Sequence record: PQ249397
Source of the DNA: Escherichia phage Pu-Krd-SF3
Reading direction: 5' to 3' (one strand)
Length of the DNA: 64,000 bases
Part shown: positions 7,510-10,911 of the stretch, piece after piece
How positions within the stretch are numbered: the first letter of the stretch is position 1
Layout of the letters: the number at the start of each line of letters is the position of its first letter
Notes under the pieces: generated by a model
What the model was told of the DNA's origin: nothing
Databases searched by the model: none
What the model saw: only the letters and a program-made list of their open reading frames with translations
Position numbers and translations under genes: made by a program

Positions 7510-7728
7510 ATGTCAATAAGTCCTGCATTTTCGTTTAAAAGAGAATTTATAATGGCAAAACAAGTTAAAGCAAAGAAAGCAGTTGAAAAGAAAGTTGGTG
7601 ATTCTAAACGCGCTGGCTACAAGCGTGGGTCGAACTCTCGTATCAATCAAACTGTTGAGAAGATCATGCGCCGAGCACGTGCGGTTCTTCGAGATGATGC
7701 TTCTCGTTTTGGTAAGCAGAAAGCATAA
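7510..7728 (+). CDS. Small highly basic protein; first ORF of the rIII-ligase island (alternative start at 7552 gives 58 aa)
   Basis: Lys/Arg-rich translation; two candidate ATGs. Confidence 0.45.
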   Translation: MSISPAFSFKREFIMAKQVKAKKAVEKKVGDSKRAGYKRGSNSRINQTVEKIMRRARAVLRDDASRFGKQKA

Positions 7729-7733
7729 GTTGA

Positions 7734-7762
7734 GGACTCCTTCGGGAGTCCTTTTTTATTTT
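7734..7762 (+). terminator. Rho-independent terminator
   Basis: 7-bp stem GGACTCC-TTCG-GGAGTCC followed by TTTTTTATTTT. Confidence 0.7.
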
Positions 7763-7781
7763 CCAAAGATTGCACAAAGTT

Positions 7782-7811
7782 GTTTACAGTATAGTTCCTT
7801 TGTGATAGTAT
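7782..7811 (+). promoter_or_regulatory. Early promoter-like element (GTTTAC -35, TAGTAT -10)
   Basis: GTTTAC at 7782-7787, about 18-bp spacer, then -10-like box; followed by GGAGAATAAAATG initiation module. Confidence 0.5.
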
Positions 7812-7838
7812 TATCTTACACAAACAAAGGAGAATAAA

Positions 7839-8171
7839 ATGAAAACGATTAATCTGAACGCTACAGTTAAAACTAAATGCTTCAATGGTAAATATGATGA
7901 AACTATGTGGTTCTTAATGGCAGTTGAAGGTGATATTATTGAAGTAGAAACAACAGAAGGTATGGGAACAGATTTCACCTTTACAATTCAAGTTCATAAT
8001 TTCTTTACTGGTTGGATTTATGAATTGAATACAGTAATCGTTGGAAAAATTGAACAAAATGAATTAGGTGAATGGTATTATGTTACAGCTCGCCAACGTG
8101 CCGAACGCTTAATTGAGAAGATGAAAAAAGTTGGTAAACTTGACATGCAGCATTGGAAAGTAGTAAAATAA
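7839..8171 (+). CDS. Hypothetical protein (rIII-ligase island)
   Basis: 110 aa; ATG with GGAGAA SD. Confidence 0.5.
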   Translation: MKTINLNATVKTKCFNGKYDETMWFLMAVEGDIIEVETTEGMGTDFTFTIQVHNFFTGWIYELNTVIVGKIEQNELGEWYYVTARQRAERLIEKMKKVGKLDMQHWKVVK

Positions 8172-8173
8172 TT

Positions 8174-8213
8174 GTTTACTTTGGTACAGGATATGATATT
8201 ATATACCTGTACC
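8174..8213 (+). promoter_or_regulatory. Early promoter-like element with 8-bp inverted repeat flanking the -10
   Basis: GTTTAC 8174-8179, 17-bp spacer, TATTAT 8197-8202; arms GGTACAGG 8183-8190 and CCTGTACC 8206-8213. Confidence 0.5.
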
Positions 8214-8239
8214 GCAATTAAACATCTTGGAGAATAAAA

Positions 8240-8605
8240 ATGAACTACATCAACTTTGAACGTAAATATGTTTCTAATGGTATTGCAGGTTCTATTGATA
8301 CTATTTGCCTTTGGAAACATCAAAATGGATCAGTATGCGAAATTGAACAGTATATGACTCCTAATTACGTTTATATGCGATTTGAAAACGGTATCACGGT
8401 TTCAATCACGATGGAAGGTTCCAACTTTAAAATCGCTCTGGATGATGATTTCCGTCAACGTGATTTAGGTACTCATCCTTGCTGGAATGGCGTTAATCGT
8501 AAGCTTCTTGTTAAAACTTGGATTCGTCATATTTTGAGTAACAGAGCTAAATCTGAGCATCTTGAAGCAATCTTTGATGTAGTTCTTAACGAATTTGATA
8601 TTTAA
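8240..8605 (+). CDS. Hypothetical protein (rIII-ligase island)
   Basis: 121 aa; ATG with GGAGAA SD. Confidence 0.5.
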   Translation: MNYINFERKYVSNGIAGSIDTICLWKHQNGSVCEIEQYMTPNYVYMRFENGITVSITMEGSNFKIALDDDFRQRDLGTHPCWNGVNRKLLVKTWIRHILSNRAKSEHLEAIFDVVLNEFDI

Positions 8606-8646
8606 AATAAAATGAGGGGCTTCGGCCCTTTACTGAGGAAAATACT

Positions 8647-8934
8647 ATGTTTATGACTACTTATTTTGATACTCGTAAAAATTTTTGCGAAGTTGTTTTC
8701 TCAAAGGCGCCTAAAGACCTTCCTGCACATTTGCAGCCTACTAGCGAATCGATTAAAAACTACGTTGATGTGGTTTGTCCTTTAGAGTTTCGTACTGTAA
8801 ATGGGCGCGATACTTTAGCTATCACTAAACTCAATCGTGAAATTGACATTGACCCTTCAATTGCACGCGAAATTAATATCTCTGATATTGGCGGCGGTAA
8901 TGTTAAATCGCACGGTTTTCAGATGAGGTTCTAA
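8647..8934 (+). CDS. Hypothetical protein (rIII-ligase island)
   Basis: 95 aa; preceded by hairpin GGGGCTTCGGCCC and GAGGA SD. Confidence 0.5.
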   Translation: MFMTTYFDTRKNFCEVVFSKAPKDLPAHLQPTSESIKNYVDVVCPLEFRTVNGRDTLAITKLNREIDIDPSIAREINISDIGGGNVKSHGFQMRF

Positions 8935-9131
8935 TGAAATTCTTTTTAGGTCAAACCGTTGAATTAAAGGGAGTTGGTATACCTGGATTAATTTCTAAGG
9001 TTCTGCCTCCATTTAAATGGAGTGGTGTTCAAATAAAAGAGGCTTATATTGTTTCCTGGGTAGATGGAAATGAAGACCTTCGTATGGGTGATGAATTATC
9101 TCCTATTTACGGATTAAAGGAATTAGTATGA
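8934..9131 (+). CDS. Hypothetical small protein (rIII-ligase island)
   Basis: 65 aa; ATGA overlap with upstream ORF. Confidence 0.45.
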   Translation: MKFFLGQTVELKGVGIPGLISKVLPPFKWSGVQIKEAYIVSWVDGNEDLRMGDELSPIYGLKELV

Positions 9132-9334
9132 ATATAATTAATAAGATTTTTGGAATTCAGTACATTAAGGTCACATATAAAGTAACATATAAAGGTCCAT
9201 ATACCGATGAACATGAAGAACCACAAGTTAAGTCTATTATATTAGAAAAGGACCCTAACTGGCCAGTTGAATTTCGTCTTCCTTGCTATGGTCATTGGGC
9301 TGATGTTGAAATTATAAGTATTGAAAATGTCTGA
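9128..9334 (+). CDS. Hypothetical small protein (rIII-ligase island)
   Basis: 68 aa; overlaps neighbours. Confidence 0.45.
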   Translation: MNIINKIFGIQYIKVTYKVTYKGPYTDEHEEPQVKSIILEKDPNWPVEFRLPCYGHWADVEIISIENV

Positions 9335-9785
9335 GTTAGAGATTAGAAGCAATTTTAGATGGCCATCATGCGCATTAAGTAATTTCGCCCATTGGCCTTT
9401 CGTTATGGATGGTATTCAATTTGGAGGTCTTGAAGGATTCCTCCAAGGATGCAAGGTGAAAAACGTTGAACAACAACGTCGTATATTTGGGTTATCCGGG
9501 CTTGCCGCCCAACAAGCTGGACGAGCTTATGCTAGAGCTCAGGACCGTGGGACCCTCTTCTGGCTTGGAGTTCCGTTTTCAAGATACTCCCCGGCGTGGA
9601 AAGAATTATACACAAATGCATATTTTGAAGCAGCGATCCAAAACAAGGGCTTTCGTGATGCATTACAAGCCTCGAAAGGAAAAGTTTTGAAGCACAGCAT
9701 GGCTAGTGGTCTAACAAAAGATGATACAATACTAACCGAAGCTGAATTTATTGATGTGTTAAACCTATTAAGAGACTCTCTATGA
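9327..9785 (+). CDS. NADAR / YbiA-like (DUF1768) protein; positional equivalent of T4 30.3
   Basis: 152 aa from ATG (track starts on TTG at 9321); LSNFAHWPF...DG...EGFLQ resembles the E. coli YbiA/NADAR signature as recalled. Confidence 0.6.
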   Translation: MSELEIRSNFRWPSCALSNFAHWPFVMDGIQFGGLEGFLQGCKVKNVEQQRRIFGLSGLAAQQAGRAYARAQDRGTLFWLGVPFSRYSPAWKELYTNAYFEAAIQNKGFRDALQASKGKVLKHSMASGLTKDDTILTEAEFIDVLNLLRDSL

Positions 9786-10645
9786 AGCCAACTATTTTGA
9801 CTGATATTGATGGAGTATGTTTAAGCTGGCAATCAGGCCTTCCTTATTTTGCTCAGAAATATAATCTTCCGTTAGAACATATTTTAAAAATGATCCAAGA
9901 TGAGAAATTTATTTCTCCGGGTAAACTCTTTAATTGTGATGAAGAACTTGGTGTCAAGTTAATTGAAAAATATAATCGATCAGATTTTATTCGTTATTTG
10001 TCTCCATATAAAGATGCTCTGTGTGTAATTAACAAATTAAAAGAAGATTATAATTTTGTAGCTGTTACAGCACTGGGTGATTCTATTGACGCTCTGCTGA
10101 ATCGTCAATTTAATTTGAATGCTCTTTTTCCTGGTGCCTTTTCAGAAGTACTGATGTGTGGTCATGATTCTTCAAAAGAAGAGTTGTTCAAAAAGGCAAA
10201 AGAGAAATATAACGTAATTTGTTATATTGACGATCTCGCTCACCACTGCGATCACGCGAGTGAAATATTAAATGTTCCAGTTTATTGGATGGCTCGAGGA
10301 GAGCGTGACAGTATTCCAAAAACTGCACAGCGAGTTTATACATGGAACGATGTAGAGAATAAGCTTTTTTCACCAAAGGAAAATAAAGAAAGTTTTGATA
10401 GTGAAAAAGCTATAAAAGATGTAATTGAGAAGATGGTTAAAAACGATTCTTTTCCTTGGAACACTACCTGGAGAACGCCTGGATTAAATCCATATCATCC
10501 ATATTATACACATCCATATAATCCATATTATACACACCCGTATCATATGAATCCATTCCACACGTGGAGTTATATTAAGCCTGGCGACGCAGGGTATTTT
10601 AATAGACTTACTAGTGGTGATAATATTTTTCAAGGAGCATTCTAA
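9782..10645 (+). CDS. HAD-like hydrolase-fold protein with C-terminal Tyr/His/Pro-rich repeat tail; positional equivalent of T4 30.2
   Basis: 287 aa; N-terminal DIDGV motif and later YIDD motif; C-terminus PYHPYYTH PYNPYYTH PYHMNPFH. Confidence 0.55.
   Translation: MKPTILTDIDGVCLSWQSGLPYFAQKYNLPLEHILKMIQDEKFISPGKLFNCDEELGVKLIEKYNRSDFIRYLSPYKDALCVINKLKEDYNFVAVTALGDSIDALLNRQFNLNALFPGAFSEVLMCGHDSSKEELFKKAKEKYNVICYIDDLAHHCDHASEILNVPVYWMARGERDSIPKTAQRVYTWNDVENKLFSPKENKESFDSEKAIKDVIEKMVKNDSFPWNTTWRTPGLNPYHPYYTHPYNPYYTHPYHMNPFHTWSYIKPGDAGYFNRLTSGDNIFQGAF
10490..10561 (+). repeat. Three tandem 24-bp repeats inside the preceding CDS
   Basis: CCATATCATCCATATTATACACAT / CCATATAATCCATATTATACACAC / CCGTATCATATGAATCCATTCCAC read directly. 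Confidence 0.8.
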
Positions 10646-10911
10646 TGTTTGTTGTTCACACTATTTATGAAAATGAAGGTAATACTACACGTGATTACGG
10701 TCACGTAAATCAATTTTTTAGATGCAATCCAGAGTTCCAAGCTCAAAAAGACGAACGAATTTTTAAAAAATGTGTAGAGCAAGGTTTCATTTATATCAAG
10801 CACTGGATGCAAGGAAATAAAGTTAGAACCACATATCATAAGTCTTTGACTGAGCTTAATGATGAATTGATTTATAATAGAGCTGTAAACCAAACTCTGA
10901 AGGATGAATAA
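10645..10911 (+). CDS. Hypothetical protein immediately upstream of ligase
   Basis: 88 aa; ATGA overlap at both ends. Confidence 0.5.
   Translation: MFVVHTIYENEGNTTRDYGHVNQFFRCNPEFQAQKDERIFKKCVEQGFIYIKHWMQGNKVRTTYHKSLTELNDELIYNRAVNQTLKDE

What the first reader, a model, noticed from the sequence alone, without database searches (positions are those of the whole stretch)
7510..10911. Compact island of nine small early ORFs between rIII and DNA ligase
Nine ORFs of 58 to 287 aa are packed with overlapping stop/start codons and interspersed GTTTAC promoter modules and hairpins. Beyond the NADAR-like and HAD-like members I cannot assign functions. This position is a known plasticity zone in T4-type genomes, and such islands are where host-takeover and anti-defence genes tend to sit.
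Basis: partly seen in the sequence, partly recalled or inferred. Interest (0 to 1): 0.4.

Follow-up and report, generated by a model that had tools for sequence, protein, structure and literature searches.

The report
T4 accessory genes 30.9 to 30.1
This stretch is the long-known, dispensable block of nine small genes (30.9 to 30.1) that sits between rIII and DNA ligase in phage T4 and its relatives; one of them (30.3, AdfN) is already proven to disarm a bacterial defence, so the finding is real but ordinary.

Summary
Nine ORFs lie at 7552-10911 on the + strand, and the window is 100% identical here to Escherichia phage Pu-Krd-SF4. All nine are orthologues of T4 genes 30.9-30.1, 96-100% identical in protein except for the tail of 30.2. 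The accepted start of 30.9 is 7552, not 7510.

Gene 30.3 is AdfN, a NADAR enzyme shown in 2024-25 to remove DarT1 ADP-ribose from phage DNA. It is full length here. Gene 30.2 is a true HAD phosphatase: all four motifs are present, and the predicted fold is closest to 5'(3')-deoxyribonucleotidases. The other seven have no assignable function. Gene 30.1 gives a confident model with no known fold match.

All nine are non-essential in T4 transposon mapping. The slot holds 2-12 ORFs across T4-like genera, so it is a plasticity zone. The "GTTTAC modules and hairpins" correspond to described PeSL cassettes. Two published T4 middle promoters also project into the block.

Verdict: already known, low interest.

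The one possibly new item lies just upstream of 30.9. It is a 57-nt pseudoknot at 7432-7488, supported by covariation, found once per locus in 46 of the 55 sequences searched and in none of the four that lack 30.9, and it matches no Rfam family.

The parts
7432..7488 (+). Conserved 57-nt pseudoknot element ('M1') in the rIII-30.9 spacer. S1 is 7439-7444 paired with 7456-7462. S2 is loop strand 7447-7453 paired with 7477-7482. The conserved linker reads CGTTAAATATCC.
   Evidence: Covariance model R1 finds one + strand copy in 46 of the 55 sequences searched, none in the four loci that lack 30.9 (and none in five of the loci that carry a 30.9 relative), and a single hit in the 64-kb window. In one search, 82.6% of cells pair against 68.7% in shuffles (0/500). 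The covariation score is 0.371 against 0.155 (0/500), and slid controls give 0.065-0.119. Eight of 15 pairs show compensatory double changes. There is no Rfam match.
7487..7497 (+). Small hairpin CCC-CTTGA-GGG in the 30.9 leader
   Evidence: Conserved across genera, with one compensatory change (C-G to G-C in phage Cronus).
7503..7526 (+). Variable-sequence stem-loop (GCAGG-N14-CCTGC) followed by a T-rich run 7527-7536. It looks like a terminator or attenuator and sits 25 nt before the 30.9 start.
   Evidence: The position is conserved while the stem sequence differs completely between genera: GAACTGG/CCAGTTC, GGGAGC/GCTCCC, GGCGA/TCGCC, TGAGAGGT/ACCTCTCA. This was read by eye and not scored statistically.
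7527..7546 (+). Hairpin ATTTTC/GAGAAT that sequesters the weak Shine-Dalgarno of 30.9
   Evidence: Inverted repeat I3. Equivalent SD-covering stems with other sequences occur in S16/Klebsiella/PG7 (CTCC/GGAAG) and Cronus (CCTC/GAGG).
7552..7728 (+). Gene 30.9: 58 aa, pI 11.4, a small basic protein of unknown function
   Evidence: 57/58 identical to T4 gp30.9. Matches phrog_1427 at E 3.5e-31. The core SKRAGYKRxSN is invariant. Only 4 representative clusters exist among 1.84 billion proteins. Non-essential in T4.
7732..7753 (+). Intrinsic terminator: 9-bp stem, UUCG loop, T-run
   Evidence: I15. The equivalent site is annotated as a terminator in phage ATK47.
7782..7811 (+). T4 early-type promoter (GTTTAC-N18-TAGTAT). 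Together with the terminator upstream and the SD downstream it forms a PeSL-type cassette.
   Evidence: The PeSL definition is in PMC4122927.
7839..8171 (+). Gene 30.8: 110 aa, function unknown
   Evidence: Pfam Phage_30_8 at E 5.7e-60. 108/110 identical to T4. Patchy among genera.
8174..8202 (+). Second T4 early-type promoter (GTTTAC-N17-TATTAT), overlapped by the 8-bp inverted repeat 8183-8190/8206-8213
   Evidence: I19.
8240..8605 (+). Gene 30.7: 121 aa, function unknown. First gene of the 30.7-to-ligase run.
   Evidence: Pfam Phage_T4_Gp30_7 at E 1.2e-52. Present in all Tevenvirinae genera sampled. Its cysteines are not conserved.
8615..8630 (+). UUCG-loop hairpin after 30.7, with no T-run
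   Evidence: Read directly from the sequence.
8647..8934 (+). Gene 30.6: 95 aa, function unknown
   Evidence: phrog_2153 at E 3e-51. 94/95 identical to T4.
8934..9131 (+). Gene 30.5: 65 aa, function unknown. Conserved GIPG and WVD motifs.
   Evidence: phrog_1690. Alignment.
9128..9334 (+). Gene 30.4: 68 aa, function unknown
   Evidence: phrog_2042. Tandemly duplicated in phage WG01.
9327..9785 (+). [quoted passage not shown]
   Evidence: 150/152 identical to T4 AdfN. Pfam Phage_30_3 at E 1.4e-69. The family profile's top PDB hit is YbiA at E 0.054. Three of 7 homologues touch Pfam NADAR. Function was shown in PMC11825919 and PMC11125620 and confirmed by HIDEN-SEQ.
9725..9737 (+). Projection of T4 middle promoter P30.2: -10-like TACAAT at 9725-9730, start near 9737
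   Evidence: The T4 start site 128355 (PMC2988021 Table 1) was mapped by collinearity with T4.
9782..10645 (+). Gene 30.2: 287 aa. A HAD-superfamily phosphatase with a helical C1 cap (residues 1-200), followed by a helix and a disordered Pro/Tyr/His-rich tail.
   Evidence: Invariant D8xD10, T96, K132 and D150-D151. AF2 core pLDDT is above 90. 97 HAD structures match at E<=1e-3, and the best TM/rmsd values are for cdN/mdN deoxyribonucleotidases. The profile hits 2jao at E 0.022.
10488..10543 (+). 24-nt tandem repeat (2.3 copies) encoding the PYxPYYTH repeats of the 30.2 tail. The net length difference from T4 is +9 aa.
10645..10911 (+). Gene 30.1: 88 aa, DUF3045, function unknown. Its stop overlaps the ligase start.
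10854..10885 (+). Projection of T4 middle promoter P30: MotA-box-like GCTTAA at 10854-10859, TATAAT at 10873-10878, start near 10885
   Evidence: The T4 start site 127234 (PMC2988021 Table 1) was mapped by collinearity. The sequence was read.

Best explanation
The region is the orthologue, in a Tequatrovirus identical here to phage Pu-Krd-SF4, of T4's non-essential accessory block 30.9-30.1. The block lies between the rIII lysis-inhibition gene and the essential DNA ligase.

Inferred transcription (from sequence): 30.9 lies at the end of the upstream cd-31-rIII unit, behind a long structured leader, and is followed by a strong terminator. An early promoter then drives 30.8. A second early promoter drives 30.7 and the genes after it. 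The six junctions from 30.6 through to ligase have overlapping stop and start codons, so these genes are probably translationally coupled. The T4 middle promoters P30.2 and P30 re-feed the distal genes.

Shown function: gp30.3 (AdfN) hydrolyses the ADP-ribose that the DarT1 toxin places on guanines of phage DNA, which restores replication in DarTG1 hosts.

Inferred function: gp30.2 is a capped HAD phosphatase that acts on a small phosphomonoester, most likely a (deoxy)nucleotide. gp30.1 is probably its partner.

The remaining small proteins (30.9, 30.8, 30.7, 30.6, 30.5, 30.4) are most likely host- or defence-specific accessory factors. They are gained, lost and swapped through recombination at the promoter/terminator cassettes.
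For: Identity and annotation:
- 100% DNA identity to PQ759884, and 943 phage records match.
- Gene-for-gene collinearity with T4, and 96-100% protein identity apart from the 30.2 tail.
- Pfam and PHROG families named for these genes.

AdfN:
- Biochemistry and genetics in PMC11825919 and PMC11125620, with independent support from HIDEN-SEQ.
- The copy here is full length, unlike the truncated 137-aa RB69 allele.

30.2 and 30.1:
- HAD motifs, model and fold matches.
- 30.2 is the most widespread member, found in 8 of 9 genera sampled and in 1451 phage records.
- 30.2 and 30.1 are adjacent with a TAATG overlap. A 302-aa HAD-DUF3045 fusion exists.

Dispensability and plasticity:
- All nine genes are 'Non-essential' in T4 while genes 30 and 31 are 'Essential'.
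- Variable content and mosaic identities across genera.
- Promoter, terminator and PeSL anatomy.
Against: - No function is demonstrated for eight of the nine genes. Nothing found here links 30.9, 30.8, 30.7, 30.6, 30.5, 30.4 or 30.1 to any defence system (PADLOC, NCBIfam, PDB sequence and fold searches were all empty).
- The deoxyribonucleotidase-like assignment of 30.2 rests on a borderline profile hit (E 0.022) and on TM-scores of 0.63-0.70. Pfam NT5C was not hit.
- The 30.2-30.1 fusion comes from one 1.4-kb metagenomic contig. The second candidate fusion (phage TG1) is supported only by Foldseek at E 0.02 and not by hhalign.
- The transcription units are inferred from sequence and from T4 literature. 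They were not measured in this phage.
Confidence: 0.85

Rival explanations
1. The 30.7-to-ligase run is a coherent DNA-maintenance operon rather than a grab-bag of anti-defence genes. AdfN removes base adducts, the HAD enzyme (with 30.1) cleans up nucleotide or sugar-phosphate by-products or trims the dNMP pool, and ligase seals the DNA. The small ORFs would be accessory subunits of this pathway.
For: - The six junctions from 30.6 through to ligase have overlapping stop and start codons.
- 30.2 lies directly upstream of ligase, or upstream with only 30.1 or one other small ORF between, in every genus that has it.
- The closest structural relatives of 30.2 are deoxyribonucleotidases.
- AdfN acts on DNA (PMC11825919).
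- AdfN works fully only in T-even infection, which implies a phage-encoded helper.
Against: - Ligase is essential while all nine upstream genes are dispensable on K-12.
- S16, the Klebsiella phage and the Vibrio phage keep 30.2 without 30.3, and kvi keeps 30.3 without 30.2, so the two are not obligately linked.
- The small ORFs come and go independently of one another.
Confidence: 0.2
2. Apart from 30.3 and 30.2, the ORFs are largely neutral passengers of a recombination hot spot. They would be ORFans carried in and out by PeSL-mediated exchange, with no consistent function in this phage.
For: - Patchy distribution and narrow families: 20 homologue clusters for 30.1 and 4 representative clusters for 30.9.
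- No detectable homology to anything characterised.
- All are non-essential.
- PeSL cassettes flank the first genes.
Against: - The proteins are 96-100% identical between this phage and T4, and recognisable at 45-65% identity across genera, with invariant motifs such as SKRAGYKR in 30.9 and DYGHVNQF in 30.1. That indicates purifying selection.
- 30.9 carries an elaborate conserved leader.
- 30.1 folds confidently.
Confidence: 0.12
3. The 7432-7488 element is not an RNA pseudoknot. It would instead be a short leader peptide gene (ATGATG...) or a DNA-level site.
For: - A conserved ATGATG precedes the element in most sequences, and an ORF of up to 34 codons starts there in this window.
- The single-sequence fold of the whole spacer is no more stable than shuffles (z -0.75).
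Against: - ORF length ranges from 1 to 34 codons, the frame is not kept, and four sequence types lack the ATG.
- Compensatory changes occur in both helices, including helix S1, which was not part of the model used to build the alignment.
- Frequent G-U pairs fit only the + strand RNA.
Confidence: 0.15

Closest known systems
Bacteriophage T4 genes 30.9, 30.8, 30.7, 30.6, 30.5, 30.4, 30.3, 30.2, 30.1 (NC_000866, 127205-130540)
   Same: Same order, strand, spacing and stop/start overlaps. Proteins are 96-100% identical. Same flanking genes: 31 and rIII upstream, then 30, alt.1 and alt downstream.
   Different: - The 30.2 tail has an expanded Pro/Tyr/His repeat (287 against 278 aa).
- 30.1 is one residue shorter (CAA to TAA), so its overlap with ligase is TAATG instead of ATGA.
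- The ATG of the doubtful internal ORF 30.3' is ACG here.
AdfN (anti-DarT factor NADAR; T4 gp30.3), Johannesman et al. 2025, PMC11825919
   Same: 150 of 152 residues are identical, and it is full length with the C-terminal helix that RB69 lacks. The genomic position is the same.
   Different: Two substitutions (H23Q and A68S relative to T4). Activity of this allele has not been tested.
5'(3')-deoxyribonucleotidases cdN/mdN (PDB 2jao, 2i7d, 1q92) and the bacterial homologue 3bwv; HAD superfamily with a C1 cap
   Same: DxDG nucleophile motif, Thr, Lys and DD motifs, a Rossmannoid core with a helical cap inserted after motif I, and a shared GVLxxWxSGL-type cap start.
   Different: - Only 14-20% identity.
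- Pfam NT5C is not hit.
- An 85-residue C-terminal extension with a disordered repeat tail.
- Substrate unknown.
PeSL (promoter-early stem-loop) cassettes of T4-like phages, Arbiol 2010 / Comeau 2014 (PMC2839356, PMC4122927)
   Same: Stem-loop terminator, then an AT-rich stretch, then TTTACW-N17-TAYWAT, then SD and start codon, all in a hyperplastic region. The segment 7732-7841 has exactly this layout.
   Different: The -10 hexamer TAGTAT departs from TAYWAT at one position. The second promoter (8174) has no stem-loop upstream of it, only an inverted repeat across its -10. Recombination at these sites was not demonstrated here.
T4 gene 32 translational-operator pseudoknot, and small H-type pseudoknot aptamers such as preQ1-I
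   Same: The 7432-7488 element is a compact H-type pseudoknot with an A-rich linker in the 5' leader of a gene for a small nucleic-acid-binding-type (very basic) protein. Further downstream lie a terminator-like hairpin and an SD-sequestering hairpin.
   Different: There is no sequence or model match to any Rfam family. No ligand or protein partner is known. Its distance from the start codon varies between phages from about 60 to about 330 nt.

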